Assembly (NCBI GenBank): GCA_045659405.1
Contig: JAZOWX010000015.1
Span: 9,143-73,142, forward strand
Direction: 5' to 3'
DNA length: 64,000 nt
Source of the DNA: Eubacteriales bacterium
GTDB lineage: Bacteria > Bacillota > Clostridia > Oscillospirales > CAG-272
In this document: positions 209-60,872 of the stretch, piece by piece
Numbering within the stretch: the first letter of the stretch is position 1
Layout: each line of letters begins with the position of its first letter
Position numbers and translations under genes: made by a program
Notes under the pieces: generated by a model
The model's database searches: none
Seen by the model: only the letters and a program-made list of their open reading frames with translations
Told to the model about the DNA's origin: nothing

Positions 209-392
209 AGCGATTTTGTATCGAAATAAAGGCTTTGGCGCTTGAAAAACAGGATTGTTATTGCAAAGTCGAGATTTATCAGCTCATAAAAACGATTTAT
301 ATTAAATCGACACTATTTTGTCGTTTTTACACTTGAAAAACAGAAAGCAGCGTTATAAAATAAAGCTGTATTCACTTCGGATAAGAGGTTTT

Positions 393-1706: not shown

Positions 1707-1723
1707 AAGAAAAATAAAAAATA

Positions 1724-1760
1724 GCGGAGATGCTGTAAACACAGAATCTCCGCTTTTGCT
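1724..1760. terminator. Bidirectional hairpin terminator between convergent genes
   Basis: gcggagat (1724-1731) pairs with atctccgc (1746-1753). T-run on the + side; A-run upstream gives a T-run on the - side. Confidence 0.6.
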
Positions 1761-1799
1761 TTGTGTAAAAGCTGTATTTTTCATCAAAAATGCAAACTT

Positions 1800-4001
1800 T
1801 TATTTTAATTTTTTATCAATTTCCTCGAAAATTCTCTCGGCTATATTTTTCATACCGAGGTCACCCGGGTGACTTGCAACACCGCTGTGCGCAAACAGAT
1901 CACACGCCTTCATTTTATCATCTGCTCCGAGGTCGCCAAGATAAACGGTTGGCAAATTTTTCTCTTTTCCAAGGGCAATTATATCATCATCGGCAGGGTG
2001 TCGCCAGAAGCCCGTGGTTAAAATCACACTCGCACCCGTAGAGCTAAGATAATTTATAAGGCCCTCGTATTTTTCCCTGAAAATTTTCGAGTCGTATTCG
2101 TCCTTTGGGCAGTTTTCCACAACCCGCATTACGATTATATCCGCTCCGAAGCGACGGGCCGCCTCGTATTTTTCGAGGATTGTTTGCCCCTCCTTGTACC
2201 TGCTCTCCCACTCCGAAACCTGGCAGATGCAGAAAGCGGAATCAGGAGATTTTTCACAAATTTTTCGCATAAGGATATGAGCGTAGTCATTCTCCTTTTT
2301 TGATGCCGCCATTCCGAAATCGTGATACCAGCCAATCTCCGGACGTATTCCGTGCAGCGTTATCGAGTTTCCGACAAGCATTACACGAGCACCGCCGCCG
2401 TTTGGATTTTCAAATCTGATACAGCCGTCAGGCTTAAGCTGTCCTATGGCTGAAACTGTATTTTTGTCCATATCGGAAAAGGGGCTTACCGATATGCGTA
2501 TATTCTCGGCAAAATCACCCATATGACAGTCGCACTCATCAAGCGAGCGCATAGGCACACCGTTATAATAAAGGTCCTCTATGAGTATATTTTCGGTTTT
2601 ATGCTCACCGTCATAGCCGCCAAAGACAAGCTTTGGCAGATGCTTTCCGTAAAGATTTATATTTTTAAACGTAAAGCTGTGGTTTTTGCCTCGCCTGTTA
2701 ACTCCTGCCGAATACTCCTTGTGATACTCAACCGTAACCGATATGGTTTCGGGCATATATTCGGGGGCGGTGTTGTGATATTCCTCACCGTCCTTTGTCT
2801 GCAAGAGAAGCTTTGGTATAACCTCGTCAGCTTCAATATTGATATTGGTAAAGTAGACCTCGCTGACCTCTGCATAATCGACGTTCATACAGTCAAGCGC
2901 AGGTCCCATCAGGTGAATTATATCGCAGTTGCGAAAATGAATGTTTCTTATTTTTTCCGCCTTTGTTTCAGCGCCGATTTCAAGCGATTTGCCCCAGTCG
3001 TTGAATATAACCGTACGCTCAACAACAAGGTTTTCAAAGCTGTCATAGCAGCAGCCGCCGTGATAGGTAGCCGCCTTTATAGCCGCCATAACGTCAGCCT
3101 CGTTGTAAAAATCAAAGCCCTTTACACATATCGAATCGTCAAACGTCCGAATAAAGCAGTCGGATATATGAACGTCACGGCAGTTGTGCATATCTATGCC
3201 GTCGGAATTATAGCGCCAGCATCCGATAATCTTCAGGTTTTTTATTTTCAAATTACGACAGCCGATAGGGCGGATATTATAAACGAGCGAGTCACGCATT
3301 GTAATTCCGTCAATCTCAACGTCATCGCAATATTCAAGCTGTACTGTGTGTCGGCGCTTTGCGTTTTGCACGGCTGTTTCGTTGCCCACGGCATTTGTCG
3401 AGAAGAGTATTTCTTCCTTATTTTTGCTGTTATCAAGAATGCCCCTGCCGAGAATTTTTATATTTTTTGCATCCTCGGCTCGAACACACGCATATACCAC
3501 AGCGCCCTCATCAATGAAAAGCGTCTGCCCCGAATGAAGCTCAATAAGCCCCGCATCATGCTCGCCCGCACCAAAATAAATTACCCCCTCGTACGTGGGA
3601 TTTATTCCGTAATCCTTTATTCTGTCGGCAAATATATGAAGCGCACGACGTCTGTCTGTAACCTCAAGCGTAAAGTACGCAGGCTTCGGCAGGGTGAAGC
3701 TTATTTTTCCGTTCTCCACCTTTGGCGAGATACCGAGAGATTTCGGGCGGATTTTCACATTTTTCTCATCATATTCAAAATGACAGGCAACCTCAAACAA
3801 AAGCGGCTCGTCACATTCAAGCGAAACAAACTGCACCGTCTCGCTCTGACTTATCTCTCGCTGATGTCCGGGCCAGCGCCGATTAAACGGTACAGCCGAA
3901 ACACGAGCCGTGTTAGTATTTATTTCACAGCCGTTTACTTTCACCGTGTAGTCCTCGCACAGGACGTCGGTTTTTATCACCGGGTATACGTTTACGCTCA
4001 T
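1800..4001 (-). CDS. Fusion protein: GH28-like right-handed beta-helix glycosidase (N-terminal) plus SGNH/GDSL hydrolase (C-terminal)
   Basis: ATG at 4001 with GGAGGA upstream. 'YNSDGIDMHNCRDVHISDCFIRTFDDSICVKG' matches the GH28 NxDG...DDxIxxK pattern. The C-terminal part has 'VMLVGNSITLHG' (SGNH block I) and 'ASHPGDLGM' (block V-like). No signal peptide. Confidence 0.7.
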   Translation of the reverse strand: MSVNVYPVIKTDVLCEDYTVKVNGCEINTNTARVSAVPFNRRWPGHQREISQSETVQFVSLECDEPLLFEVACHFEYDEKNVKIRPKSLGISPKVENGKISFTLPKPAYFTLEVTDRRRALHIFADRIKDYGINPTYEGVIYFGAGEHDAGLIELHSGQTLFIDEGAVVYACVRAEDAKNIKILGRGILDNSKNKEEILFSTNAVGNETAVQNAKRRHTVQLEYCDDVEIDGITMRDSLVYNIRPIGCRNLKIKNLKIIGCWRYNSDGIDMHNCRDVHISDCFIRTFDDSICVKGFDFYNEADVMAAIKAATYHGGCCYDSFENLVVERTVIFNDWGKSLEIGAETKAEKIRNIHFRNCDIIHLMGPALDCMNVDYAEVSEVYFTNINIEADEVIPKLLLQTKDGEEYHNTAPEYMPETISVTVEYHKEYSAGVNRRGKNHSFTFKNINLYGKHLPKLVFGGYDGEHKTENILIEDLYYNGVPMRSLDECDCHMGDFAENIRISVSPFSDMDKNTVSAIGQLKPDGCIRFENPNGGGARVMLVGNSITLHGIRPEIGWYHDFGMAASKKENDYAHILMRKICEKSPDSAFCICQVSEWESRYKEGQTILEKYEAARRFGADIIVMRVVENCPKDEYDSKIFREKYEGLINYLSSTGASVILTTGFWRHPADDDIIALGKEKNLPTVYLGDLGADDKMKACDLFAHSGVASHPGDLGMKNIAERIFEEIDKKLK

Positions 4002-4181
4002 AGCTATCCTCCAAACAATCAAGCTTTATCAATCTAACCCAATTATAACGGATATTCTGTTTTTTACAATGCAAATTCTTTAAAAATCGTGAGTTTTATA
4101 CACTTATTTCCTGAAAAATATTGTTTTTTTGCACGATTTTCTGTTAAAATCTTTATAGAAAACAAACGAGGGGGTGTTGTT

Positions 4182-8993: not shown

Positions 8994-10265
8994 ATGAGAC
9001 TTACAATACCGTACGGAAGCGAAAGCGTTTCCTTTGACGTTCCGGATAAAAATTTCTGCGAGCTGCTTGAGCCGCACGAGCCGCAGTTTGAAAATGATGC
9101 CGCCGAGGTCATAGAGGAGGCTCTTGATAACCCGATTGGCACACCGAAGCTCGAGCAAATCGTCAGCGGCAAAAAGACGGTCAGCATTATAGTTGACGAT
9201 ATGTCAAGGCCGACACCCGTGCATCTGATACTGCCGCCCGTTATGAAAAGGCTTCACGCGGCGGGTATTGAGCGTGAAAATATCAAGGTTATAATTGCTC
9301 TTGGCTCTCACCGCTATATGACCGAAGATGAGATTATTGCCAAGGTCGGTGAGGAAATTTACAAAAACTACCGTGTCATAAACTCCGAATTCAAGGACGA
9401 GGAGTCGCTCGTGCTTATGGGTACTGCCGAGGACGGAAGCAAGATTTACGTCACGGGCGAGGCGGCGCAGTCGGATATCAGAATCGGTATCGGAAACATA
9501 GTTCCACACCCCGTTATGGGCTGGAGCGGCGGCGGTAAAATACTCTTCCCCGGAATTTCGGGCGAGCGGACGGTTGCTCTTTTCCACCTTATGGGCGGCT
9601 TGCACCCAAACGGAAACCTTTTCGGCTGGGATGAATCCCCCGTGCGCCACTGCATTGAGGGCTGGGTTGACGTTATCGGCCTCGATTTCATCATAAACAC
9701 AGCGCTCACGGGTGATTTCCGCATATACCGTGCTGTCAGCGGTCATTACGTAAAGGCGCACAGAGAGGGCGTTAAATACGCTCGTGAAATCTGGGGCGCA
9801 AAGACGAGCAAAAAGGCGGATATTATGATTGTAAGCTCCTACCCCGCAGACCAGGATTTCTGGCAGTCGGGCAAAGGACTTTACTCGGCAGAGGGCGGCC
9901 TTGTGGATGAGGGAGGCACGATAATTCTCGTTTCCCCGAACTACGAGGGTGTCGGACCGCACCCGGAATTCCCCGAATATATGGGTGATGACGGTGCGCA
10001 CGAAAAGCTTGTACGTGCAAAGGACGACGACACAATCCCCGGTGACAGACTTGCAATGTCGGTAGGCACTGCAATGTGCAAAATGCGTCTGCGCCGTGAG
10101 ATAATAATGGTAAGCGACGGTGTTATGAAAGAGGACTGCGACACCTGCAAGATTGGCTACTATCCGCTTTCCAAGCTTCAGCAGGCGATAGACGATACAA
10201 TAGCAAAATACGAAAATCCGACAGTTTCTGTAATAAGCCACGGAGGAGAGCTTTATGTATATTGA
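8994..10265 (+). CDS. LarA-family (nickel-pincer lactate racemase-like, DUF2088) protein
   Basis: 423 aa. 'VSIIVDDMSRPTP' and 'IALGSHRYMT' resemble LarA N-domain motifs, and the length is typical for LarA homologs. Confidence 0.75.
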   Translation: MRLTIPYGSESVSFDVPDKNFCELLEPHEPQFENDAAEVIEEALDNPIGTPKLEQIVSGKKTVSIIVDDMSRPTPVHLILPPVMKRLHAAGIERENIKVIIALGSHRYMTEDEIIAKVGEEIYKNYRVINSEFKDEESLVLMGTAEDGSKIYVTGEAAQSDIRIGIGNIVPHPVMGWSGGGKILFPGISGERTVALFHLMGGLHPNGNLFGWDESPVRHCIEGWVDVIGLDFIINTALTGDFRIYRAVSGHYVKAHREGVKYAREIWGAKTSKKADIMIVSSYPADQDFWQSGKGLYSAEGGLVDEGGTIILVSPNYEGVGPHPEFPEYMGDDGAHEKLVRAKDDDTIPGDRLAMSVGTAMCKMRLRREIIMVSDGVMKEDCDTCKIGYYPLSKLQQAIDDTIAKYENPTVSVISHGGELYVY

Positions 10266-10771: not shown

Positions 10772-11902
10772 ATGAAAATAGTTGCAGCAATAGACTCCTT
10801 TAAGGGCAGCCTTACGACCTTTGACGCCGCAGAGGCGGCAAAGTGCGGAATACAGCGTGTATACCCCGATGCCGAGGTCGTGATATCTCCGATAGCCGAC
10901 GGCGGTGAGGGCACAGCGCAGGCAATAGTCTATGCAAACGGCGGTGTTATGCGAAGCGTTGCCACCTCGGGACCGCTCGGCGATACGGTCATTGCCGAAT
11001 ACGGTATTTGCGGTGAGGTTGCAATTATAGAAATGGCGGCGGCAAGCGGACTTCCTCTTGTGCCAACCGATAAAAGAAATCCGCTTTATACCGACACCTA
11101 CGGAACGGGTGAGCTTATACTCGACGCTTTGCGCCAGGGATGCCGCAAATTTATTATCGGTATCGGCGGCAGCGCCACGAATGACGGCGGTATAGGTATG
11201 CTGCGTGCGCTCGGCGCAAAATTTCTTGACGAGGGCGGAAATCCCGTCAGCCGTGGCGGTATCGGTCTTTCGGAGCTTCGGAAAATAGAGGTATCCGATA
11301 TGGCAAAGGAGCTTTCCGAGTGCAGCTTTACCGTTGCCTGCGACGTTACAAATCCCCTGTGCGGTGAGCGTGGGTGCAGTCGCATCTTTGCACCGCAAAA
11401 GGGAGCGGATGAAAAAATTATCACCGATATGGACTCCTGGCTTTCAAAATATGCCGAGCTGACAAAGACGGTAAATCCCACATCCGACCCAAATTATCCG
11501 GGGGCGGGAGCTGCCGGGGGTCTTGGCTTTGCCTTTCTTTCATTCCTCGGTGCGACACTCAAATCGGGTATAGATATAGTCATAGCCGAAACAGGACTTG
11601 AGGAGCATATAAAAACCGCAGATTTCGTCATTACGGGCGAGGGTCGGCTTGACGGTCAGTCGCTTATGGGTAAGGCGCCGATAGGCGTCGCTTCGATTGC
11701 AAAAAAATACGGGAAGCCCGTGATAGCAATTGCGGGCGGAGTCACGGATGATGCGATAGAAGCACACGGACACGGCATTGATGCAATCTTCCCGATTGTA
11801 AGAGGCCCGATAGCTCTTGCCGAGGCTATGAAGGAGGATGTTGCACGTAAAAACATTTCAGCTACGGTAGAGCAAATTTTCAGACTTATAAGCATAAAAT
11901 AA
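10772..11902 (+). CDS. Glycerate kinase
   Basis: ATG at 10772 after gagga. N-terminus 'MKIVAAIDSFKGSLT', plus 'IIGIGGSATNDGGIGML' and 'VITGEGRLDGQSLMGKAP', typical of the GlxK/GarK family. Confidence 0.85.
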   Translation: MKIVAAIDSFKGSLTTFDAAEAAKCGIQRVYPDAEVVISPIADGGEGTAQAIVYANGGVMRSVATSGPLGDTVIAEYGICGEVAIIEMAAASGLPLVPTDKRNPLYTDTYGTGELILDALRQGCRKFIIGIGGSATNDGGIGMLRALGAKFLDEGGNPVSRGGIGLSELRKIEVSDMAKELSECSFTVACDVTNPLCGERGCSRIFAPQKGADEKIITDMDSWLSKYAELTKTVNPTSDPNYPGAGAAGGLGFAFLSFLGATLKSGIDIVIAETGLEEHIKTADFVITGEGRLDGQSLMGKAPIGVASIAKKYGKPVIAIAGGVTDDAIEAHGHGIDAIFPIVRGPIALAEAMKEDVARKNISATVEQIFRLISIK

Positions 11903-51054: not shown

Positions 51055-53373
51055 TCAGTCCAGCTCCTCTACCCTCATTACCGTAACGGTTATATCGTCG
51101 GAGCATTTTCTGTGCGCTTTAGCCGCAGAAAGAATAGAGCCCGCAAAATCCGAAAGCGAGGCGGGATTTGCAGAAGAGATAAGCTCAAGCAGCCAGGGCG
51201 CATCCTCTGGAACACCCGTAACACCGTCGGACATCATAATCACGTAATCTCCTGTCTCGACCTGCACCCTTATTCTTTCGCTGTCGATAGTAGACATAAG
51301 ACCGAGCGGTGCGGTTTGGGAGCGTATCCTGAAAATAGAGCCGCCACGCTTTATGTAGGACGGTGCGCCGCCGCTTTTAAGAAAGACGGCTTCCTTGCTG
51401 TAAAGGTCGAGCGAAAACAGGTCAACGGTTGCCGAGCATTCCTCACGTCCGCCGCCAAGATAGGTATTGAGTAAATGCATTACCGACTCACCCGGGGTGG
51501 CAATCGAGAGAATTGCCGACAGGTATGATGCGACGAATTCAGAGCATTTTCTCGCAACCTCACCGCTTCCCATACCGTCGGAAATCAGAGCGTAAAAGCT
51601 GTCAGCACATTCGATTTTTCGTGCGACGTCGCCGGATACGTCACTGCCGTGCGCCACAGAGCCGACGCTTGCGTAGGATACCGAATATTTTTTCCTTACC
51701 GAGCATTCCATAAGCGCCATATTGCCGCGCCTGAAATATTCTGCCGTGCCAAGCGGCGCACCGAGCGCACCCTCAATCACCCGACGAAGCTCGGGTGAGG
51801 TTATCAACACACCGTCCTCATCACGTCCTGCAAGAATTACGTGTTTGCGCCTCTCGCCAAATACACGAGCTGTGAAATCAGCAAAACCACCCGCAGAAAG
51901 TGCCGACTCAAGTCTGTCTGTCAGCGGCTCGTTCATAGAATACTCCGCCGCCAGTACCCCCTCTGCCTCGTTTATGATTTTGCCAAAGAGGCGAAGCTCG
52001 CCCGAGGGGGGCGAAAAGGAGAGAACGAGCGCATCGTACATTTGCTTTATATCTGTAAAAATCGAAAAAATTTCATTGTCCGAAACAGCGAGATAAGCGA
52101 GGTCTTGGCGGTTGATTCCCTCTTTTTTGTAAAGTTTTATTGCTATTTTTTCAACATTTTCATCCTTTTCGGCAAACGGCAGGTGCTGTTTGATTACACC
52201 GAAAACCAAGCTCGAAAGCTCGTCCACGCTCGGCACTCTGACAAGAAAAGCTCCGAGCGCCGCCGATAGCGAGGACATAACCGAGCAGAGCGAATGGCTG
52301 ACGGCTTTTGCCGAGCTTTTATAGGCAAGCGCCATTGTTCCGACCATATCTATTGCCGAGCGGTCTATGTCTGCCTCGCTCGTCTTTTCGGACGTCGGTC
52401 TTATTTTTTTGATAATAGGAAATACAAGCGCCGCCGCTGCGGCATATTCGGGAAGCGTCGAGGCAACTCCCGTCACACCGCCCACGTATGCGGAAAATAC
52501 AGATAACAAAGCACCGCCAAAGACAGCCGAATAAAGAAGTCCGAAGCCCGAAAGCGCACCGGCTGTAAGACCGGCAAGCATAAACGCACCGCTATACGTA
52601 CCCGAAATTGCAAAGGCGCAGACAAAGCCTGCGGCGGCGCCGCTCACAGCACCGAAGCGCCGTGCCCCGATAAGCGCACAGGCGGCGGCAAAAAGATACC
52701 CCGGGGATATTCCGAGTGCCGAATATCCCCGCACCGAAAAGCTTGTCACAAAAAGCAGCAAAAGAAGAGATATGCGAAGCCAGATTACACCGCCACCCGT
52801 GCGAAGGCGGTGTACGGCCGTATCAGAGGTGAAAAGAGCAAACGGGTCATATGCCAAGCCGAAAACTCCCGAATAGCCGAGCGCCAAAAGCGGCGGCACT
52901 ATTATCATAGTAAGTCCGAAAAGCAACGCCCGCATTTCAAAGCCCGAAAGCAATATCTCATAGACTGCCGCAATAAAGCCGCCGATAACCGAAACCGACA
53001 TTCGAAGCAGAATCCCCTCGCCAAACAGCACAGCACCCTCGCTTCGCTTCCCTGCCCCGGATACTATAACCCGCAGGAAAACTATTATCAGAGCGGTCAT
53101 AGCGTAAATTATACCGCCCTCGCCAAGCGTCATTGCGCCAAGAAGCACACCGACCAAGGCAAGCCACACACCGCGCGGCAGAGCCGCAAGAAATGCAGCC
53201 GCAAACGGGTGAGCGCCAAAAACCAAGGGCGCACGCACAAAGAGGAATGCCCCAAGCACCGCCGCTATATCCCAAATCAATATTTTAGGCGAATTTTTTC
53301 TTCGCTCCGCCGCTCGGCGAAGGACCTCGGAAACTCCGACTCCGCCCACTGCGCTTTCTCTTTCCTTTTCCAT
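51055..53373 (-). CDS. spoIIE: Stage II sporulation protein E (PP2C phosphatase with a polytopic N-domain)
   Basis: 772 aa. About 10 N-terminal TM helices and a C-terminal PP2C domain with 'YALISDGMGSG' and 'VIMMSDGV'. Confidence 0.85.
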   Translation of the reverse strand: MEKERESAVGGVGVSEVLRRAAERRKNSPKILIWDIAAVLGAFLFVRAPLVFGAHPFAAAFLAALPRGVWLALVGVLLGAMTLGEGGIIYAMTALIIVFLRVIVSGAGKRSEGAVLFGEGILLRMSVSVIGGFIAAVYEILLSGFEMRALLFGLTMIIVPPLLALGYSGVFGLAYDPFALFTSDTAVHRLRTGGGVIWLRISLLLLLFVTSFSVRGYSALGISPGYLFAAACALIGARRFGAVSGAAAGFVCAFAISGTYSGAFMLAGLTAGALSGFGLLYSAVFGGALLSVFSAYVGGVTGVASTLPEYAAAAALVFPIIKKIRPTSEKTSEADIDRSAIDMVGTMALAYKSSAKAVSHSLCSVMSSLSAALGAFLVRVPSVDELSSLVFGVIKQHLPFAEKDENVEKIAIKLYKKEGINRQDLAYLAVSDNEIFSIFTDIKQMYDALVLSFSPPSGELRLFGKIINEAEGVLAAEYSMNEPLTDRLESALSAGGFADFTARVFGERRKHVILAGRDEDGVLITSPELRRVIEGALGAPLGTAEYFRRGNMALMECSVRKKYSVSYASVGSVAHGSDVSGDVARKIECADSFYALISDGMGSGEVARKCSEFVASYLSAILSIATPGESVMHLLNTYLGGGREECSATVDLFSLDLYSKEAVFLKSGGAPSYIKRGGSIFRIRSQTAPLGLMSTIDSERIRVQVETGDYVIMMSDGVTGVPEDAPWLLELISSANPASLSDFAGSILSAAKAHRKCSDDITVTVMRVEELD

Positions 53374-54298: not shown

Positions 54299-55665
54299 TC
54301 GGTATCTCCGTTTCACAGTTTTCTGCGGCTTGTAAGGCTACAATATTTTTGCATATTTATTCATTTTTGCGTTTTCAAACATCTGAGCTATCGAACTAAA
54401 AAAATCGCATCCAAAGGCGATGAGCTGTACAGCCACACAAACCGATATAAGCCAACATAAGAATTATACATCAACAAAGCGCAAAGGTCAAGAGCCGAAG
54501 CATCAATGGCAAAAAACAAAACCAAAAAACAGAAAAAACAAAACCAAAAACAAAAAGCAAAAAAACAAAAAGCAAAAGCAAAAAAACAAAATATCAACCG
54601 TCGCAATCAGTCACACAGAAAGCTGCCTAACGAGCGGCAAAGCCAAAAGCCGCAAAGCTCCCTCAAGCACCCTGCAAAAAAGAGGACAGAGCCACCGTTC
54701 AAAAGCGCCCCGAAAGTGTAGTACAAAAAGACGACCTAAAATCGCCCAAAAAGCACCCTAAAAGCGAGCACGAAAAAGAACAGCCAAAACTGCGCGCACA
54801 AAAAGAAGTACATCACCAGCATCACCCCAAAAGCGTAGTGCAAAAAGAAGAACAGCGCCAAAATTTGCACAGAACGCTTCGGATAGAAAAACGCAAAAAT
54901 CCAAAAAGTTCCGCTAACAGCAAAGCAAAAAACGCAGCAACCCAAAGGAAGCAGCTGCGATAAAGGGGCAAAAAGCACCCTACGTCTTGTCACACAAGAC
55001 ACAAATCCAAGGCAGGAAAAACAGGGAACGTCTGTGCTTATTTATTCTTCTCTGTGCATTTTTATTCACCAATATAAGGAAATTTACTTTCGCACAAATT
55101 ACGAATTAAGCCACAAATTCACAGCAAAAATCGGTGCAAAAATCAGCTTTAAAACACGCCCTTTCGTAAAAGTTACAATCAAAATATGCAAAAACGCCAA
55201 AAATTTGTGCAAAAATCACCCGAGCAAAACAAATTTTCCATTTTTTGTCATAAAAGCCCATATTTTGCCATATTTTACCTTTTAAATCGCAAAATTTGCT
55301 TTTTCTAACAAAAAGAGCTGCGAAGCGCCACGGATGCCTCAAAAAACAGCCAAAAAACACACTAAAAGATCAAAAAACGTGGCAAAATAGCGTAAAAACA
55401 CCGAAAGCATGTCAAAAATACATCAAAACACACTGAAATACCACCCGAAGACCACACCCAAACACACCGCAACGGTTTAAAAAAGGATAAAAAGCGGCAA
55501 AAACAGCAGTAAATATCGGATTTTTGGACAAAATCAGCGCAAATTACCGCAAAAAAACAAACAAAAAGTTGCAGAAAAGGCGGCAATTTCAGGTAAAGGA
55601 AGCAGAGCAACCGCCACGGCTCTTGGCACAGCCACAAGCATTTGCCAAGCCAAAGCGCAAGAAAA

Positions 55666-55681
55666 TGTTTCACGTGAAACA
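55666..55681. promoter_or_regulatory. parS site 1 (perfect)
   Basis: TGTTTCACGTGAAACA, matching the Firmicute parS consensus tGTTNCACGTGAAACa. Confidence 0.85.
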
Positions 55682-55879
55682 CCCAAAAATCAAGCTTTAC
55701 CCACAAAATAGCCATATTTTGCTCAAAAAACAGCGTTTACCTGCATTTTTTCACGGTTTTTGTGCGGATTTTACCGATTTTGAGCTGTTGTGTGGCTCAA
55801 AAAGCGCCCCCTTGGGGTGAAATGCAGCCAAACAGCTAGATTTCAATCGTATATACCACAGTAACACCAGTGGCGCAAT

Positions 55880-55895
55880 TGTTTCACGTGGAACA
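55880..55895. promoter_or_regulatory. parS site 2 (one mismatch)
   Basis: TGTTTCACGTGgAACA. An extra GTGAAAC half-site lies at 55899-55905. Confidence 0.7.
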
Positions 55896-55924
55896 TTTGT
55901 GAAACCATATAGTTATCGAGGATT

Positions 55925-55940
55925 TGTTTCACGTGAAACA
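55925..55940. promoter_or_regulatory. parS site 3 (perfect)
   Basis: TGTTTCACGTGAAACA. Confidence 0.85.
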
Positions 55941-56417
55941 TTCGGCTCATCCGGACAGCCACGAGGGCTTGTTTTGTGATAAAAATCCGATTGTCCAAGT
56001 GTTGTGCAGAGGCAACGTGTGCCAGAGGCGCAAAAGCGGATATATAGCTGTGTTTGACCGATTTTGTGTCTTTTCAGCGTTGTTTTGCAAACTTTGGGCG
56101 GATTTTATTGTGTTTTTGTTGCGTTTCGCCGTGCTTTTGATGCGTTTTTGCCGTTTTGTAGCCTTGTTCTCTGTTTTTTTACCACCAACAACCGCTCTTT
56201 ACAGGCTTTGAGCTTTGCTTGTTCAAAGCTGCGCCTCACCTGTTTCTTGATACTGCCGCATCAGCAACTCCTCAGCTCACAACCTCTCGGCGCACGCCCT
56301 CGGTTTACAAACCTTGACTTACAGCCCTCGACTTACAATACATAGCGCACAGCGCTCAAAAGCAACACCAGTGGGTTTAAGATTGTTTAAACTTATTTAA
56401 ACACCCACACAATTTGA

Positions 56418-56433
56418 TGTTTCACGTGAAACA
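56418..56433. promoter_or_regulatory. parS site 4 (perfect)
   Basis: TGTTTCACGTGAAACA. Confidence 0.85.
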
Positions 56434-56479
56434 TATAGCTTTGCGCAGAAAAAGCGGTCAATTCAGGCGCTTTGCGCCG

Positions 56480-56495
56480 TGTTTCACGTGAAACA
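56480..56495. promoter_or_regulatory. parS site 5 (perfect)
   Basis: TGTTTCACGTGAAACA. Confidence 0.85.
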
Positions 56496-56835
56496 TTTGC
56501 TTTTTTACATCTAGAAGCCGCCACTTGACTTTGAACAGCCTTTTATCTTTTGAAGTCGCTATACAAAACAACACAAAAAGAACACAAAAAGCAAACATAT
56601 AGATAAATAAAAATGAAACCGTACACAGCGCAACCAACAAGCGGGGTGGCAAGGAAATTCAAAAAAGAGAGCAAAGATATCACCAAAACATAGTACAAAG
56701 CAGCTCGAACCTTGCCAAAATACTTTTAACGGTCTTTTTTTGGTTATACTTCGCCATTGAGCTATTGATTTCCCCGGTTTTTCTTTGCTGTGCGTCAATT
56801 AATTACCCGTTTCGCTTTACTGTGCAGTGATAAAT

Positions 56836-57084
56836 CTACGGTTTCACTCCGCCACAAAGCAATCGATTCCTCTTTTTTTGCTCTGTTATGCACCAAACAA
56901 CCCCACACTTCGCTTCGTTATGGAGCAACAAGCTCCCCTTTCTACTCTGATATGCGATAATAAACCCCTGATTTCACTTTGCTACGAGCAACAAGCTCCC
57001 TTTTTTGCTCTGGTATGCGATAACCAACCCAGGATTTCACTTTGCTACGGAGCAATCAACCCCTCTTTTTGCTTTGGTTTGTAG
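56836..57084 (+). repeat. About 4 tandem copies of a 62-66 bp repeat
   Basis: Units start at 56873, 56939 and 57001, with partial units at both ends. The shared core is ttttttgctctgNtatgcNa...(g/a)tttcac...gc(t/c)ac...agcaa...ctccc. Confidence 0.8.
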
Positions 57085-57201
57085 TAAATTCATTGCTGTT
57101 TTAGCTTCAAATCCCGTGTTTTGCTTTTCTTTGCGGTTCTTTCATTTTTATTGTATATTTATATACTATATATAATTATAAGGAAGATTTTTTTATTTAT
57201 A

Positions 57202-57230
57202 TTGACAAAGTCTTGCACTTTTGATATAAT
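57202..57230 (+). promoter_or_regulatory. Consensus sigma-A promoter upstream of soj/parA
   Basis: TTGACA (57202-57207), a 17-nt spacer ending in tga, then TATAAT (57225-57230). Embedded in an AT-rich tract at 57120-57240. Confidence 0.7.
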
Positions 57231-57278
57231 AATTATGTGAACTTATAACTTCTAACCGATTGGAGTAGCTTTTATTCT

Positions 57279-58040
57279 ATGGGAAAGGTTGTTTCTTTTT
57301 CTAACCAGAAAGGCGGCGTAGGAAAAACCACGTCCTGCGTCAATATTTCAGCACAAATAGCCAATAAGGGCAAAAAGGTGCTTATGATAGATATGGACCC
57401 TCAAGGCAATGCAACGAGCGGTCTTGGAATACAGAAATCAAAGATTAAAAAGACAATATACGACGTAATTATCGGAAAATGCGACATAAAAGATGCTATT
57501 ATCAAGACAAATTTCAAGAATTTGTCCGTAGTTCCGGCAAATATTGACCTCGCAGGCGCTGAAATAGAGCTTCACGACCTTGAGGAAGCGGAAAACTTCA
57601 CCAAGCTTGCGCTCGATTCGATAAAGGATAGCTTTGATTACATATTTATAGACTGTCCCCCCTCACTCGGAATGCTTACCGTAAAGGCTCTTACCGCTTC
57701 TGACGGTGTTGTAATACCGATGCAATGCGAATTTTACTCGCTTGAGGGTATGTCACAGCTTTTAAATACAGTAAAGAGAATAAGACAGCTCTATAATCCC
57801 ACGCTCCAGGTTGTCGGAATACTGCTCACAATGTACAACGGCAGACTCACTCTTACCTCCCAGGTTGTTGCGGAGCTTAAAAAGTACTATTCGGACAAGC
57901 TGTTCCGTGTTCCGATTTCAAGAACAGTAAGACTTTCGGAAGCTCCGGGTTACGGTGAGCCTATATGCTATCACGACCCCTACGGAAAGGGCGCTCTTGA
58001 GTATGCAGCCGTTTCAAAAGAGCTTATGATGCGCATTTAA
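57279..58040 (+). CDS. soj: Chromosome partitioning ATPase ParA/Soj
   Basis: 253 aa. Deviant Walker A 'SNQKGGVGKTTS', plus 'MIDMDPQGNATSGLG' and 'IFIDCPPSLG'. Confidence 0.9.
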   Translation: MGKVVSFSNQKGGVGKTTSCVNISAQIANKGKKVLMIDMDPQGNATSGLGIQKSKIKKTIYDVIIGKCDIKDAIIKTNFKNLSVVPANIDLAGAEIELHDLEEAENFTKLALDSIKDSFDYIFIDCPPSLGMLTVKALTASDGVVIPMQCEFYSLEGMSQLLNTVKRIRQLYNPTLQVVGILLTMYNGRLTLTSQVVAELKKYYSDKLFRVPISRTVRLSEAPGYGEPICYHDPYGKGALEYAAVSKELMMRI

Positions 58041-58093
58041 AGCGATAAAAAGCCGATTTTCTTACAAAATCAAACGAGTGTGAAACACTAAAA

Positions 58094-58194
58094 GACAGCA
58101 AAAAGATAGCAAAAAGACAATAAAAAGACGGCAAACAGACAGCAAAAAAGTCAGTAAAAAGTCAGTAAAAAGTCAACAAAGATACGACAAAAAA
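58094..58194 (+). repeat. Nine tandem ~11-bp A-tract units in the soj-spo0J spacer
   Basis: gacagcaaaaa gatagcaaaaa gacaataaaaa gacggcaaaca gacagcaaaaaa gtcagtaaaaa gtcagtaaaaa gtcaacaaa gatacgacaaaaaa. Confidence 0.85.
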
Positions 58195-58254
58195 TATTAG
58201 TCTTACAGATAATTAAATGGTATTTTTTTACCATTTATCACAACGGAGGAATAT

Positions 58255-59145
58255 ATGGCAAAGAAGAACAGCGGTCTTGGAAGAGGACTCGATGCAATTT
58301 TTCTTGACAATGCTACAACAGAGGGCACAGACAGCGAAAACAGAATAACAATCCTGAAGCTGTCGCTCATCGACCCGAACAAGGATCAGCCGAGAAAGAC
58401 GTTTGAAAAAGAACCGCTTGAGGAGCTTGCGGCTTCAATCTCGGAAAACGGACTTCTTCAGCCTATTCTTGTCAGAGAGTACGGTGACGGAAGATATCAG
58501 ATTATCGCAGGCGAGCGCAGATTCCGTGCATCAAAGCTTGCGGGACTTACCGAAGTTCCGACCATAGTTCTTGACAAGGATGACCGCCGTGCGGCAGAAA
58601 TTTCGCTGATAGAAAATATACAAAGAGAGGATTTGAATCCTCTTGAGGAAGCACTCGGCTACCGCTCGCTCGCAGAGCAGTACGGTATGACGCAGGAGGA
58701 AATTTCCGCAAGAACAGGAAAGAGCAGAAGCGCTGTTGCCAATATGATGCGTCTTCTCGACCTGCCCCGTGAGGTGCTTGACCTCGTTGGCGCACGCAGA
58801 CTTTCCGCAGGCCACGCAAGAACACTTCTCGGTCTTCGTGATAGCGGTATGATTATGGATATTGCAAATGCGGCAATAGACGGTGACCTCTCTGTACGCG
58901 CGCTTGAGGAGCTTGTTAAACGCACGAACAAGGCAGCCGCAAAGCCTAAAACCGAAGATGAAGCTCCGCTTCCGATTGTTGATTATTTCAGAGAGCTTGA
59001 GCTTCGTGTTCAATCCGCCCTCGGCAGACGCTGTGTAATTGAGGAAAAGGGCAGAAAGAAGAGAATATCTCTTTATTACGAGGATAACGAGGACCTCACA
59101 GAGCTTCTCGAATCCATCCTCGGAAAAGATTTTATGGATAATTAA
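58255..59145 (+). CDS. spo0J: Chromosome partitioning protein ParB/Spo0J
   Basis: 296 aa. 'GLGRGLDAIF', 'IIAGERRFRAS', 'LIENIQREDLNPLEEA' and an HTH 'TQEEISARTGKSRSAVANMMRLL'. Confidence 0.9.
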   Translation: MAKKNSGLGRGLDAIFLDNATTEGTDSENRITILKLSLIDPNKDQPRKTFEKEPLEELAASISENGLLQPILVREYGDGRYQIIAGERRFRASKLAGLTEVPTIVLDKDDRRAAEISLIENIQREDLNPLEEALGYRSLAEQYGMTQEEISARTGKSRSAVANMMRLLDLPREVLDLVGARRLSAGHARTLLGLRDSGMIMDIANAAIDGDLSVRALEELVKRTNKAAAKPKTEDEAPLPIVDYFRELELRVQSALGRRCVIEEKGRKKRISLYYEDNEDLTELLESILGKDFMDN

Positions 59146-59542: not shown

Positions 59543-59770
59543 ATACGTGTGTATTATTCAAAAGGGCATATAACAGTCGGATTGTTAAAAACCCAGGCTG
59601 TTTGACGCACCTTTATTACACACAGGTGTTTGGTATATATCCCTTGGGCAAAAGAGGGGATTCCAAACGGAGTTAAAGAATCGGACGTCGCATAAAAGTG
59701 AAAAAGCTATGCGTAAAGTCCCCTGAAAATGAAAATTTTCTCTATTCTTTTTGTAAACACCGCTTTGGAT

Positions 59771-59796
59771 GAGTCCCCGAATTGGGGACTCTTTTT
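59771..59796 (+). terminator. Rho-independent terminator/attenuator between the riboswitch and downstream genes
   Basis: GAGTCCCCgaattGGGGACTC followed by ttttt. Confidence 0.7.
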
Positions 59797-59914
59797 GCAT
59801 TCCTTTGTCGACGTTTTTAAAACTTTAGTTGACAAAATGTGGGGAAGCGAAAAGCTTTCCGCTTTAAAAGCGAGCTTCATTGCCGCAAAACTTACAAAAA
59901 AGGAGAAACAAAAA

Positions 59915-60328
59915 ATGAAAAAAACACTCTCGCTGATTTTAGCATTCACGCTTGTGATTTTATCGCTCGTTTCCTGCATAGAACCAGAAGGCGGCACAGT
60001 TACCGTTGTTATAGGCACACAAACACCAACCGAGTATAAGCTCGATTTCGAGGCCGAGCAGATAGAAAACGGACTTCTTTCGGTTTTGGATTTGCTGGGT
60101 ATCGAATACGACATATCGGGCGGCTTTTTAAGCAGAGTTGGCGAGCTTGCCCCAACACCCCCAAAATACATCTACATTTACACCTCTGCCACAGAGGATG
60201 CCGACGTCTCATCCTATGCTCAAACTATGGAGTACAAGGGAAAAACACTCACAAGCTCGGGTGTCGGCGCTCGTGATATGCATATAACAGACGGCGCTAT
60301 TATCTATATAGGAACAATCGTTTATTAA
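59915..60328 (+). CDS. DUF4430-like lipoprotein (putative B12-related binding protein)
   Basis: ATG at 59915 after GGAG. Lipobox 'LSLVSCIE'. 137 aa. Located downstream of the cobalamin riboswitch. Confidence 0.6.
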   Translation: MKKTLSLILAFTLVILSLVSCIEPEGGTVTVVIGTQTPTEYKLDFEAEQIENGLLSVLDLLGIEYDISGGFLSRVGELAPTPPKYIYIYTSATEDADVSSYAQTMEYKGKTLTSSGVGARDMHITDGAIIYIGTIVY

Positions 60329-60329
60329 T

Positions 60330-60872
60330 ATGAAGAGTAAAACAAAACGCATAGCTCTCACTGCGGCGCTCGTCGGTATAATGGCTGCTACCATCGAGTG
60401 CGCAAAGCTTGTCCTTGCCGCAATCCCAAACGTTGAGATTATTACGCTTCTTATAGCCGCTTACTCATATACCTTTGGCTCTGTCGGTATTTGTGCCGCA
60501 CTTGTTTTTGTGGTAATAGAGCCGCTTATCTGGGGCTTTGGCACTTGGATTATATCATACTTTATTTATTGGCCGCTCGTAGCTTTTGTCTTCTTTACTC
60601 TCGGAAAAAGGAAAACAAAAAACGTCGCATTCATAACTCTTGCGGCGGCTTTGCTGACTGTTTTTTTCGGTGTCCTTACCTCGCTTGTTGACATAGGTAT
60701 TTTCTCCGGCTCTTTTGATAATTTTCTGTATCGCTTTGCTGTTTATTATATTCGCGGAATTTGGTTTTACCTGACCCAGCTTATAACTAACGTCGTAATT
60801 TTCCCCATTCTTTTCATTCCGACAACAAAGCTTCTTTATGAAATAAAGAAAAAACAAACGCCCGACGCCTGA
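60330..60872 (+). CDS. ECF-transporter S-component-like membrane protein
   Basis: 180 aa, about 6 TM helices, with an N-terminus 'RIALTAALVGIMAATIECAKLVL' typical of S components. Starts 2 nt after the lipoprotein gene. Confidence 0.5.
   Translation: MKSKTKRIALTAALVGIMAATIECAKLVLAAIPNVEIITLLIAAYSYTFGSVGICAALVFVVIEPLIWGFGTWIISYFIYWPLVAFVFFTLGKRKTKNVAFITLAAALLTVFFGVLTSLVDIGIFSGSFDNFLYRFAVYYIRGIWFYLTQLITNVVIFPILFIPTTKLLYEIKKKQTPDA

What the first reader, a model, noticed from the sequence alone, without database searches (positions are those of the whole stretch)
54299..57278. A 2.98 kb gene desert with polarity-flipping composition where rsmG/noc-type genes would be expected upstream of soj-spo0J
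- Elsewhere in the window intergenic gaps are mostly under 400 bp. Here 2.98 kb has no credible ORF.
- The longest ORFs are 117 aa or less and translate to K/Q/N-rich or F/C/L-rich low complexity.
- The top strand is strongly T-depleted and built from 'caaaaa/gcaaaa' words from about 54.40 to 55.72 kb. This includes a near-homopurine/C run at 54500-54600.
- It then becomes A-depleted (T/G-rich 'gttttt/gattttg' words) at about 55.73-56.21 kb. It flips back to T-depleted at 56.54-56.70 kb and again to A-depleted at 56.70-57.15 kb.
- Shared words occur in opposite orientation in the two kinds of arm. For example, caaaaatcggtgcaaaaatc at 55125 matches the reverse complements of 55768-55790 and 56055-56068. 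The region therefore looks like nested, degenerate inverted arrays.
- The parS sites lie at or near the polarity switches.
- Hypothesis: a dedicated architectural centromere or ParB/SMC loading platform rather than decayed genes.
Basis: partly seen in the sequence, partly recalled or inferred. Interest (0 to 1): 0.75.

Follow-up and report, generated by a model that had tools for sequence, protein, structure and literature searches.

The report
Curved, gene-free chromosomal centromere region
The 3-kb gap upstream of soj-spo0J is a gene-free chromosome-segregation site holding five ParB-binding parS sites set in strongly pre-bent DNA, a layout that related gut Clostridia keep even though the sequence itself is not conserved.

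Summary
Window 54299-57278 has no credible gene, no known RNA and no mobile-element similarity. It shows extreme, sign-flipping A/T strand skew. All five parS sites of the 64-kb window lie in it.

The polarity flips are not the conserved feature. In 40+ related uncultured Clostridia (Soj at least 65% identical), the soj-upstream gap varies from 0.2 to 5 kb and is unalignable. Four features recur:
- A parS cluster.
- A/T tracts spaced at about 10.2-10.6 bp, which predict strong intrinsic curvature.
- Tract positions phase-locked to each parS dyad, with peaks at about 15, 25, 35.5 and 45.5 bp (per-locus Rayleigh p about 1e-5 to 1e-6). The outgroup shows no such locking.
- A roughly 120-bp conserved element, typically 0.4-0.7 kb upstream of the first parS.

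The outgroup keeps the canonical gidA-rsmG-(noc)-soj order, has short gaps and lacks the curvature signal.

Best reading: a specialised centromere whose DNA shape is under selection. How it acts on ParB or SMC is inferred, not shown. The main rival is that slippage-driven repeat expansion produced the curvature as a by-product. I rate it a new variant of a known kind and moderately to highly interesting.

The parts
54299..57278 (.). Gene-free interval between His_Phos_1 (minus strand, ATG at 54298) and soj (plus strand, ATG at 57279)
   Evidence: no ORF over 117 aa, no Pfam match, no conserved coding signal; no Rfam family, no tRNA; no similarity to plasmids or phages.
54400..55000 (+). A/C-rich, T-depleted block (T 9.3%). 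It includes an (AAAAAC)n-type microsatellite and the 84-nt T-free run at 54508-54591. It is not helically periodic.
   Evidence: for composition and repeats; periodicity power 2.8, below the shuffle mean.
54463..54491 (-). Promoter-like site TTGACC-17-TATAAT facing the His_Phos_1 gene
   Evidence: 11 of 12 consensus positions. This is a consensus match only.
55163..55279 (+). Conserved element of about 120 bp. Consensus: TTCGTAnAnTTTACAAC..AAAATATGCAAAAA..AAAAAA..GCATAAATAnCCCGAG..CCATATTTTACCATTT. It ends in 10-bp direct repeats TTTACC-N4-TTTACC.
   Evidence: together with the soj promoter, the only parts of the gap alignable to relatives; nhmmer finds it in about 20 in-clade loci, always on the soj strand and always left of the parS cluster; no consensus RNA structure.
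55200..55660 (+). Strongly curved segment built from plus-strand A-tracts spaced at about 10.4-10.7 bp, between the conserved element and parS1
   Evidence: power up to 34.5 against a window median of 4.2; 0 of 500 shuffles reach it; the 300-bp end-to-end/contour ratio is 0.17, the lowest of the 64 kb, with either parameter set.
55666..55681 (.). parS1, perfect TGTTTCACGTGAAACA
55880..55895 (.). parS2, TGTTTCACGTGGAACA (one mismatch). An extra half-site GTGAAAC follows at 55899.
55925..55940 (.). parS3, perfect
55945..56300 (+). Curved segment built from plus-strand T-tracts with a period of about 10.15-10.5 bp
   Evidence: power 23-27; 0 of 500 shuffles reach it; ratio 0.27 at 56001-56300.
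55363..55524 (+). Left arm of a degenerate inverted repeat. The right arm is 56032-56181, with 65% identity over 168 columns. The arms flank parS1-3.
   Evidence: Smith-Waterman score 39; nulls that shuffle the right arm reach at most 29-36. Marginal (11/300) when the left arm's units are shuffled.
56418..56433 (.). parS4, perfect
56480..56495 (.). parS5, perfect. Its flanks form a 24-nt inverted match with parS1.
   Evidence: inverted repeat I1
56780..57150 (+). About 5-6 degenerate tandem units of 63 bp (6 helical turns). Some units carry a half-parS-like RTTTCAC (56841, 56971, 57034) and some a GGAGC-N5-GCTCC hairpin followed by a T run.
   Evidence: TRF reports 56874-57073, period 63, 3.1 copies.; periodicity marginal (1 of 500 shuffles).
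57202..57230 (+). soj promoter, perfect TTGACA-17-TATAAT with an upstream TG
   Evidence: the words TATTGACA and GTATAATA recur in 19-20 of 35 in-clade gaps; alignable to L001.
57279..58040 (+). soj (ParA-type Walker ATPase)
58041..58254 (+). soj-spo0J spacer. It holds about 10 tandem 11-bp A-tract units (58090-58196), a half-parS GTGAAACA at 58080-58087, and GGTATTTTTTTACCATTTATC at 58219-58239, which resembles the 3' motif of the conserved element.
58255..59145 (+). spo0J (ParB) with ParB_N and HTH domains and a GERRFRA CTP-binding box

Best explanation
The gap is an expanded chromosomal centromere region for the adjacent Soj/Spo0J (ParA/ParB) system.

**Shown**
- Five consensus parS sites lie in about 830 bp, directly upstream of parAB genes, and the ParB carries the CTP-binding box.
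- The DNA around and between the sites consists of A/T tracts spaced at the helical repeat. By wedge models this makes about 55.0-56.3 kb the most curved DNA of the 64-kb window.
- In relatives the sequence turns over completely. The parS cluster, the roughly 10.4-bp phasing, the curvature, the rotational register of tracts relative to each parS dyad, and a 120-bp element 0.4-0.7 kb upstream of the first parS are all retained. This pattern is what selection on DNA shape would produce.

**Inferred mechanism**
- Tract centres fall about 1.5, 2.5, 3.5 ... helical turns from the dyad. Standard A-tract geometry then bends the flanks away from the face that a ParB dimer contacts.
- Each parS would therefore sit exposed on the convex side of a pre-bent or coiled segment. 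The static coil would bring the five sites and the conserved element within a few hundred angstroms of each other.
- Such DNA should localise to plectoneme or hairpin apices. It should favour nucleation of the ParB-CTP partition complex, and hence SMC loading. The absence of genes keeps RNA polymerase out of the way.

**Origin of the strand-skewed blocks.** The blocks and their polarity flips are best explained as the footprint of how this DNA is generated. Local tandem duplication of 10-11-bp units and their multiples (21 and 63 bp) keeps tracts on one strand within a block. The flips are not a functional polarity.

**Expansions beyond the core.** Parts of the 2.98 kb are probably expansions beyond the roughly 0.5-1 kb core module seen in species with short gaps. 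These are the non-periodic 54.4-55.0 kb block and the 63-bp repeats.
For: **parS and the Par genes**
- Five parS sites occur here and none elsewhere in the window.
- soj and spo0J are adjacent, and Spo0J carries GERRFRA.

**Periodicity in the window**
- The nine strongest 500-bp windows of 636 all lie at 54.9-56.3 kb, with power up to 34.5 against a median of 4.2.
- Zero of 500 tract-preserving shuffles reach the observed value.

**Predicted curvature in the window**
- The ten most curved 300-bp windows of 1275 lie at 55.05-56.0 kb, with end-to-end/contour ratios of 0.17-0.31 against a median of 0.89.
- The result is robust to an AA-wedge-only model at three twist values.

**Clade comparison**
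- The strongest periodicity window of each 10-20-kb locus lies upstream of soj in most in-clade loci, with power of 20-45 in about 30 of them against at most about 20 elsewhere. The outgroup shows nothing comparable.
- The most curved window lies within 700 bp of a soj-upstream parS in 28 of 40 in-clade loci and in 4 of 31 outgroup loci.
- The modelled distance from the conserved element to the first parS is a median 0.19 of the contour length, against 0.84 for controls. It is below the 1.5th percentile in 14 of 18 loci.

**Phase-locking to parS**
- Tract frequency peaks at about 15, 25, 35.5, 45.5, 56, 66.5 and 77.5 bp from the dyad.
- The per-locus Rayleigh statistic is R=0.52-0.57, p about 1e-5 to 1e-6, over 43 loci with neighbouring parS sites masked. 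The outgroup gives R of about 0.02.

**Sequence turnover**
- Even L001, whose Soj is 98% identical, aligns only at the 125-bp element and the soj promoter.

**Literature**
- Supercoiling enhances ParB condensation, but ParB does not itself pin plectonemes (PMC11602141). This leaves a possible role for sequence-encoded pinning.
Against: - There are no binding, transcription or contact data for any of these uncultured organisms.
- Curvature is predicted from wedge parameters that I recalled from memory, and it ignores thermal flexibility and supercoiling.
- parS-to-parS spacings are not helically phased, so there is no single coherent face for all sites.
- Gap length varies 25-fold, so most of the extra DNA is dispensable.
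- The block with the most extreme skew (54.4-55.0 kb) is not periodic.
- Curved intergenic segments also occur elsewhere in these genomes, for example at window 1701-2000 and L002 -8650.
- Because the gap is the largest non-coding stretch of each locus, the 28/40 statistic is inflated relative to a null restricted to non-coding DNA.
- Tandem duplication of units about 10.5 bp long would create periodicity without selection.
Confidence: 0.6

Rival explanations
1. The gap is a neutral by-product. It is a recombination- and slippage-prone, weakly constrained intergenic region in which A-rich micro- and minisatellites expand and decay. Curvature, skewed blocks and length variation are side effects. 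Only the parS sites, the soj promoter and the 120-bp element are functional.
For: - Gap length ranges from 0.2 to 5 kb among species, and the sequence is unalignable.
- TRF finds an (AAAAAC)n array, several 10-11-bp mini-repeats, and 21-, 28- and 63-bp repeats.
- Skew polarity is not conserved.
- The 54.4-55.0 kb block is non-periodic.
- Species with short gaps evidently manage without the extra DNA.
Against: - A neutral process does not explain why the period is about 10.2-10.6 bp in most of about 40 independently diverged gaps.
- It does not explain why tracts keep a fixed rotational register relative to the parS dyads across 43 loci while the outgroup shows none.
- It does not explain why the segment between the conserved element and the first parS is the most folded in 14 of 18 loci.
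Confidence: 0.2
2. The gap is a transcription-control region. Curved upstream DNA and a distal operator regulate soj-spo0J and/or the divergent His_Phos gene. The operator would be the 120-bp element with its TTTACC-N4-TTTACC direct repeats, which resemble response-regulator boxes. Looping, or binding by a nucleoid-associated protein, would mediate the control. parS sites would then simply be housed in the regulatory region.
For: - The conserved element keeps a fixed orientation relative to soj.
- The same ACCATATTTTACCATTT-type motif recurs on the same strand in the soj-spo0J spacer of the window and of several relatives, and is absent from the outgroup.
- A strong soj promoter and a divergent promoter-like site are present.
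- Curved DNA upstream of promoters is a known phenomenon (from my own knowledge).
- The model places the element close in space to parS and the downstream DNA.
Against: - The curvature peaks 1.3-2 kb from the soj promoter in this window, and it is registered on the parS dyads, not on promoters.
- No clear promoter consensus lies inside the element.
- Kilobase-scale curvature exceeds that of typical promoter-upstream bends.
Confidence: 0.12
3. The skewed arms are transcribed. They would give long A/C-rich, U-poor non-coding RNA (a protein sponge), or C-rich, G-poor Rho-loading tracts that stop transcription before it reaches parS.
For: In the window, the strand that reads towards parS1-3 is A/C-rich and G-poor on both sides. 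Such RNA would be unstructured.
Against: - No Rfam family matches and the element has no consensus structure.
- Sequence is not conserved.
- Polarity relative to parS is not conserved in relatives.
- No convincing promoter-terminator pair is present: terminator-like hits number 10, against 6.3 +/- 2.8 expected.
Confidence: 0.04
4. The gap holds decayed genes (remnants of rsmG/noc lost when the canonical gidA-rsmG-noc-soj order broke up), an old mobile-element scar, an assembly artefact, or oriC.
For: Outgroup relatives carry rsmG and a noc-like parB exactly where the gap now lies. Three in-clade loci still have gidA a few kb upstream.
Against: - tblastn with outgroup Noc, GidB and GidA finds nothing in the gap, even at E<=10.
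- There is no tblastx or Pfam signal.
- There are no plasmid or phage matches.
- The same architecture appears in dozens of independent assemblies, which rules out an artefact.
- Only one near-DnaA box lies in the gap, with no cluster, and DnaA-box words are not among the words enriched in the gaps.
Confidence: 0.03

Closest known systems
Chromosomal parS clusters next to parAB (Bacillus subtilis, Caulobacter, Pseudomonas, Myxococcus; reviews PMC7333895 and PMC5002424)
   Same: The 16-bp palindrome has the same consensus. Several copies lie close to the parA-parB operon. The ParB has an HTH domain and a CTP-binding box.
   Different: In the searched literature, known clusters are described as parS sites in ordinary coding or intergenic DNA. 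Here the sites sit in a gene-free interval of up to 5 kb. Its A/T tracts are helically phased, predicted to be strongly curved, and rotationally registered on each parS.
P1 plasmid parS with an IHF-induced bend (from my own knowledge; not tested here)
   Same: A sharp bend at the centromere is part of the architecture of the ParB-DNA complex.
   Different: In P1 the bend is made by a protein (IHF) at one site inside a site of about 80 bp. Here the bend would be sequence-encoded, extend over 1 kb or more, and flank standard chromosomal parS palindromes.
Plasmid centromeres with iterons: R1 parC/ParR U-shaped complex (PMC2241845) and TP228 parH (PMC3130281)
   Same: Repeats are spaced at about one helical turn, and the centromere is a bent or pliable DNA scaffold.
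   Different: Those repeats are the protein-binding sites themselves, bound by RHH proteins in type Ib/II systems, and span about 100-160 bp. Here the phased units are generic A-tracts, and the specific sites are HTH-ParB palindromes.
A-tract clusters and 10-11-bp periodicity in prokaryotic genomes (PMC3940949, PMC3431218, PMC4132750)
   Same: The sequence signal is the same: short A/T runs phased with the helix, associated with intrinsic bending and often found in non-coding DNA.
   Different: Those are genome-wide statistical signals of debated function. Here the signal is concentrated at one locus, is the strongest in each 10-20-kb neighbourhood, and is phase-locked to a defined protein-binding site.
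Periodic A/T clusters derived from Helitron minisatellites in C. elegans (bioRxiv 10.64898/2026.08.08.743475)
   Same: Minisatellite-like repeats are remodelled to match the helical repeat. They are proposed to act mechanically as supercoil or plectoneme sinks.
   Different: That system is a eukaryotic chromatin insulator with no link to a segregation system.

Membership tests
Chromosomal ParABS centromere (parS) | 16-bp palindrome matching TGTTNCACGTGAAACA | tested here: met
   five sites (four perfect, one with one mismatch to TGTTTCACGTGAAACA), against a mean of 0.12 matches in shuffles. None occurs elsewhere in the 64 kb.
Chromosomal ParABS centromere (parS) | Cognate parA and parB genes; ParB with ParB_N and HTH domains and a GxxRxxA CTP-binding box | tested here: met
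   AAA_31/CbiA for Soj; ParB_N and HTH_ParB for Spo0J. GERRFRA is present.
Chromosomal ParABS centromere (parS) | Origin-proximal location | tested here: inconclusive
   No dnaA gene and no DnaA-box cluster lie in the 64 kb. Outgroup relatives have the origin-type gidA-gidB-noc-soj order, and three in-clade loci keep gidA nearby.
Chromosomal ParABS centromere (parS) | ParB binding and spreading, and SMC recruitment in vivo | not testable with these tools
   This needs ChIP-seq or Hi-C. The organisms are uncultured MAGs.
Intrinsically curved DNA (phased A-tracts) | A/T runs repeated at the helical period (about 10-11 bp) beyond what composition predicts | tested here: met
   power up to 34.5, and 0 of 500 tract-preserving shuffles reach it for 54.9-56.6 kb. 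Not met for 54.4-55.0 kb.
Intrinsically curved DNA (phased A-tracts) | Predicted static curvature far above the genomic background | tested here: met
   the lowest end-to-end/contour ratios of the window (0.09-0.3), with two parameter sets and three twist values.
Intrinsically curved DNA (phased A-tracts) | Anomalous gel mobility, enhanced cyclisation, or curvature seen by AFM | not testable with these tools
   This is an experimental test.
Replication origin (oriC) | Cluster of DnaA boxes with an AT-rich unwinding element, usually next to dnaA | tested here: not met
   one 1-mismatch box in the gap; 17 in the window against 12.8 expected; no DnaA-box word is among the words enriched in the 35 gaps.
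Pseudogene or decayed gene region | Residual protein-level similarity to a gene family or to the syntenic genes of relatives | tested here: not met
Structured non-coding RNA | Match to a known family, or a conserved secondary structure with covariation | tested here: not met
   no Rfam match; zero predicted pairs in 16 aligned copies of the conserved element. Only the element could be aligned.
Iteron-type plasmid centromere (parC/sopC-like) | Tandem direct repeats that are themselves the binding sites of the centromere-binding protein | tested here: inconclusive
   A 63-bp repeat of about 5 units contains three half-parS-like RTTTCAC words. The repeat is species-specific, is not found in relatives, and its binding is unknown.

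The most novel reading that the evidence does not exclude
In this clade the chromosomal centromere is a regional, shape-encoded element. A kilobase-scale, sequence-directed DNA coil acts as a mechanical code. It is continually rebuilt by repeat turnover but held in helical register with each parS. It presents the parS sites on its outer face, gathers them together with a conserved accessory element, and pins the locus at a supercoil apex. In this way it sets where and how ParB-CTP clamps and SMC are loaded. It may compensate for the loss of the noc/rsmG neighbourhood.
Probability: 0.3. Interest if true: 0.85.

Novelty: new variant of a known kind. Interest (0 to 1): 0.68.

Why it matters
Bacterial chromosomal centromeres are currently treated as point-like 16-bp sites. 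The DNA around them is considered only as a track for ParB sliding. If DNA shape around parS is under selection, then DNA mechanics becomes a testable variable in three processes: ParB clamp loading, partition-complex condensation and SMC loading. Relevant mechanics include pre-bending, rotational setting and supercoil pinning.

The locus offers natural sequence sets for single-molecule and heterologous tests. These are dozens of unrelated sequences that share the same predicted geometry, plus an outgroup that lacks it.

It also shows that comparing shape rather than sequence can reveal constraint in non-coding bacterial DNA that alignment-based methods score as junk.

Tried and rejected
- **Origin of replication.** The DnaA-box scan shows no cluster.
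- **Known RNAs and tRNAs.** Nothing is found at gathering score or at E<=1.
- **RNA structure in the conserved element.** No pairs are predicted.
- **Coding potential.** ORFs are at most 117 aa, with no Pfam match and no tblastx conservation.
- **Remnants of rsmG, noc or gidA.** None is found in the gap.
- **Mobile-element origin.** No plasmid or phage similarity is found.
- **Exact-protein look-up of Soj in assemblies.** The sequence is not on record.
- **Metagenome scan with a degenerate 18-mer from the conserved element.** It returned 120 chance hits from unrelated environments. None carried the full element. This was a wasted scan, because the pattern was too short.
- **Conserved polarity rule (A-rich left of parS, T-rich right).** Rejected, because the clade means are about 0.
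- **Helical phasing of parS-to-parS spacing.** Absent in the clade.
- **Clade-wide test for inverted symmetry within the gaps.** Uninformative, because masked parS positions matched each other.
- **Protein-binding words other than parS.** The enriched 8-mers are parS with its flanks, A-tracts flanked by CG/GC, the soj promoter and the TTTTACCAT motif.
- **Promoter assignment for the conserved element.** I tried sigma-A and sporulation sigma consensus sequences by eye and found no convincing fit.
- **Partner genes downstream of spo0J.** They are not conserved across the clade. The His_Phos query in that call was mis-framed by my error and should be ignored. Synteny of that gene rests on the blastn.

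Full report
**1. What is in the window**

The interval lies between a histidine-phosphatase gene and soj.
- The phosphatase gene is on the minus strand. Its in-frame ATG is at 54298, preceded by GGAG.
- soj is on the plus strand, with its ATG at 57279, and is followed by spo0J.
- Neighbouring genes such as SpoIIE and SpoVAC/AD mark a spore-forming member of the Clostridia.

The 2,980 bp show none of the following:
- an ORF longer than 117 aa;
- a Pfam match for the ten longest ORFs;
- a tRNA or an Rfam family, even at E<=1;
- similarity to plasmids or phages;
- a DnaA-box cluster.

All five parS sites of the 64-kb window lie inside the interval, at 55666, 55880, 55925, 56418 and 56480. Four are perfect TGTTTCACGTGAAACA. 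Spo0J carries the GERRFRA CTP-binding box.

**2.

AT skew by segment:

| Segment (kb) | AT skew |
|---|---|
| 54.4-55.0 | about +0.6 to +0.77 |
| 55.3-55.7 | about +0.45 to +0.6 |
| 56.0-56.3 | about -0.46 |
| 56.5-56.7 | +0.41 |
| 56.7-57.3 | about -0.1 to -0.36 |

- T is only 9.3% at 54400-55000, which holds the longest T-free run of the window (84 nt).
- The first arm is interrupted at 55.0-55.3 kb, where T is 29%.
- parS1 and parS4/5 lie near skew switches. parS2/3 do not, and one switch has no parS.
- One degenerate inverted repeat (55363-55524 against 56032-56181, 65% identity) is above three of four shuffle nulls. The other arm pairs are not.

**3.

A Fourier analysis of AAA/TTT positions gives these results.
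- The nine strongest 500-bp windows of 636 all fall at 54.9-56.3 kb. Periods are 10.1-10.75 bp and power reaches 34.5, against a window median of 4.2 and a 99th percentile of 19.7.
- Shuffles that keep every tract intact never reach the observed values for 54.9-56.6 kb, 55.1-55.72 kb or 55.73-56.21 kb (0 of 500 each).
- The 63-bp repeat zone is marginal (1 of 500).
- The most T-depleted block, 54.4-55.0 kb, is not periodic.

A dinucleotide wedge model, with Bolshoy/Trifonov-type angles that I recalled from memory, predicts the following.
- 300-bp pieces at 55.05-56.0 kb have end-to-end/contour ratios of 0.17-0.31, against a window median of 0.89. These are the ten lowest of 1275 windows.
- A minimal AA/TT-wedge-only model at 10.3, 10.5 and 10.7 bp per turn gives the same hot spot.
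- The five parS sites and a conserved element (section 5) lie within about 150-730 angstroms of each other in the model, although up to 1265 bp of contour separates them.

Tandem Repeats Finder reports several 10-11-bp mini-repeats, 21- and 28-bp repeats, an (AAAAAC)n array, and a 63-bp unit (six helical turns) repeated about five times at 56.78-57.15 kb.

**4. Relatives**

A scan of one genome per species with Soj returned 80 loci, all uncultured Clostridia and mostly from ruminant gut. They split into two groups.

In-clade loci (Soj at least 65% identical, mostly 82-98%):
- The soj-upstream gap ranges from about 0.2 to 5.0 kb.
- It nearly always holds 1-5 parS sites.

Outgroup loci (Soj about 58-63% identical):
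- The gap is usually 150-500 bp.
- The canonical order gidA-rsmG-(noc-like parB)-soj is present.

The gap nevertheless holds no detectable remnant of those genes.

The gap is not alignable even to the closest relative, L001. Its Soj is 98% identical, while the flanking phosphatase gene is 73% identical at the nucleotide level. The only alignable parts are a 125-bp island and the soj promoter.

**5. What is conserved**

(a) parS clusters.

(b) Periodicity.
- In most in-clade loci the strongest 10-11-bp periodicity window of the whole 10-20-kb locus lies upstream of soj.
- Power there is 20-45 in about 30 loci, against at most about 20 elsewhere.
- The outgroup shows no such concentration.

(c) Curvature.
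- The most curved 300-bp window lies within 700 bp of a soj-upstream parS in 28 of 40 in-clade loci and in 4 of 31 outgroup loci.
- Caveat: the gap is also the largest non-coding stretch of each locus, so a null restricted to non-coding DNA would be less extreme.

(d) A conserved element of about 120 bp (window 55163-55279).
- nhmmer finds it in about 20 in-clade loci. It is always on the soj strand and always left of the parS cluster.
- The first parS is typically 430-720 bp downstream.
- It has no consensus RNA structure and no convincing promoter consensus.
- Some species carry a palindrome at one position: TGCATATATGCA or TGAATATTCA.
- Its 3' end is a 10-bp direct repeat, TTTACC-N4-TTTACC. 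The same motif recurs on the same strand in the soj-spo0J spacer of the window and of several relatives, and is absent from the outgroup.

(e) The DNA between the element and the first parS is the folded part.
- The modelled distance is a median 0.19 of the contour length, against 0.84 for equally spaced control points.
- It is at or below the 1.4th percentile in 14 of 18 loci.

(f) Tract positions are locked to the parS dyads. This is the most telling result.
- The pooled profile of tract frequency against distance from the dyad oscillates with peaks at about 15, 25, 35.5, 45.5, 56, 66.5 and 77.5 bp.
- Neighbouring parS-like sites were masked and one vector was taken per locus.
- The Rayleigh test then gives R=0.52-0.57 and p of about 1e-5 to 1e-6 over 43 loci.
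- The outgroup gives R of about 0.02.

**6. What is not conserved**

- The sign of the AT skew left and right of the parS cluster averages +0.04 and -0.04 across the clade.
- Strongly skewed 200-bp windows are nevertheless five times commoner in the gaps than outside (11.9% against 2.5%).
- parS-to-parS spacings show no helical phasing.
- The 63-bp repeat and the other blocks are species-specific.

I therefore read the skewed blocks and their flips as the footprint of local tandem duplication. Duplication keeps tracts on one strand within a block. The blocks do not reflect a functional polarity.

**7. Interpretation**

Shown:
- This is a parS centromere region next to parAB.
- It is gene-free and RNA-family-free.
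- Its DNA is built of helically phased A/T tracts.
- Phasing, predicted curvature and register with parS persist through complete sequence turnover in a defined clade.

Inferred:
- By standard A-tract geometry the bend is towards the minor groove at the tract centre. Tract centres at about n+0.45 turns from the dyad therefore bend the flanks away from the face carrying the two major grooves that a ParB dimer reads.
- Each parS would then sit on the convex, exposed side of a pre-bent segment.
- Such DNA should prefer plectoneme or hairpin apices.
- Published single-molecule work shows that supercoiling enhances ParB condensation and that ParB itself does not pin plectonemes (PMC11602141). Sequence-encoded pinning is therefore a plausible, untested contribution.

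My searches found no report of curved DNA organised around chromosomal parS. The nearest analogues are:
- protein-bent or iteron-based plasmid centromeres (PMC2241845, PMC3130281; P1 parS/IHF from my own knowledge);
- genome-wide A-tract periodicity (PMC3940949, PMC3431218);
- helically phased minisatellites proposed as mechanical elements in C. elegans (bioRxiv 10.64898/2026.08.08.743475).

**8. Rivals**

- The main rival is that the curvature is a neutral by-product of repeat expansion. It explains the length variation and the non-periodic block. It does not explain the clade-wide period or the register with parS.
- A transcription-control reading, with a distal operator and curved upstream DNA, is compatible with the conserved element. 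It may be partly true alongside the centromere reading.
- The ncRNA, decayed-gene, mobile-element, artefact and oriC readings found no support.

**9. Verdict**

The mechanism remains inferred. I classify it as a new variant of a known kind, a chromosomal parS centromere with a conserved DNA-shape component, and score interest at about 0.68.

Noticed in passing
window 58041-58254 (soj-spo0J spacer): The spacer holds about ten tandem 11-bp A-tract units (58090-58196), a lone parS half-site GTGAAACA (58080-58087), and GGTATTTTTTTACCATTTATC just before the spo0J ribosome-binding site. In many in-clade relatives a full parS sits in this spacer, at +766 to +916 from the soj start.
   Followed up: partly
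window 55258-55279; L016 about 10833-10870; L010, L011, L003, L020, L034 (soj-spo0J spacers): A 10-bp direct repeat ACCATATTTT (TTTACC-N4-TTTACC) occurs in 2-3 copies, almost only on the soj strand and only in the clade. It is often followed by TTATCAA. It resembles the direct-repeat boxes of OmpR/PhoB-type response regulators, or an IHF-like WATCAA site. The binding factor is unknown.
   Followed up: partly
window 56829, 56950, 57013; L001 9597-9743: The species-specific repeats between the last parS and the soj promoter share a GYGATAA core in both the window and L001, although the repeats are otherwise unrelated (63-bp units against roughly 42-44-bp units).
   Followed up: no
window 52400-53300 (inside SpoIIE, minus strand): Top-strand AT skew is +0.35 to +0.61 and there is a 59-nt T-free run (53135-53193) inside a real gene. 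The likely cause is T-rich codons in the multi-pass membrane domain of SpoIIE. Strong skew alone therefore does not indicate non-coding DNA.
   Followed up: partly
window 1701-2000: This is the second most curved predicted segment outside the soj region (end-to-end/contour 0.32). It lies at the junction of ORFs 318-1706 (plus) and 1800-4022 (minus). Curved intergenic DNA is therefore not unique to the centromere in this genome.
   Followed up: no
L075 9307-10000; L052 about 9200-9780: Some outgroup genomes lack noc between rsmG and soj. They instead have a dense array of 6-7 parS sites in about 0.7-0.8 kb, without the curvature signal. This may be an intermediate state in the evolution of the expanded centromere.
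   Followed up: no
L018 2153-4015, L028 2660-4513, L035 2971-4821: Three in-clade loci keep gidA (mnmG) a few kb upstream of the gap, while rsmG and noc are missing. Several other loci have gidA about 9 kb upstream on the opposite strand. The neighbourhood has been rearranged repeatedly, but the unit of element, curved DNA, parS, soj and spo0J stays together.
   Followed up: partly
window 59729-60872: Two adjacent plus-strand ORFs (199 and 180 aa) downstream of spo0J have no Pfam match. The second is clearly a multi-pass membrane protein. They are conserved only in L001.
   Followed up: partly
window 55880-55905: parS2 (one mismatch) is followed 4 bp later by an extra half-site, GTGAAAC. RTTTCAC half-sites outside full parS sites number 5 in the gap, against about 0.8 expected from the rest of the window.
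   Followed up: partly
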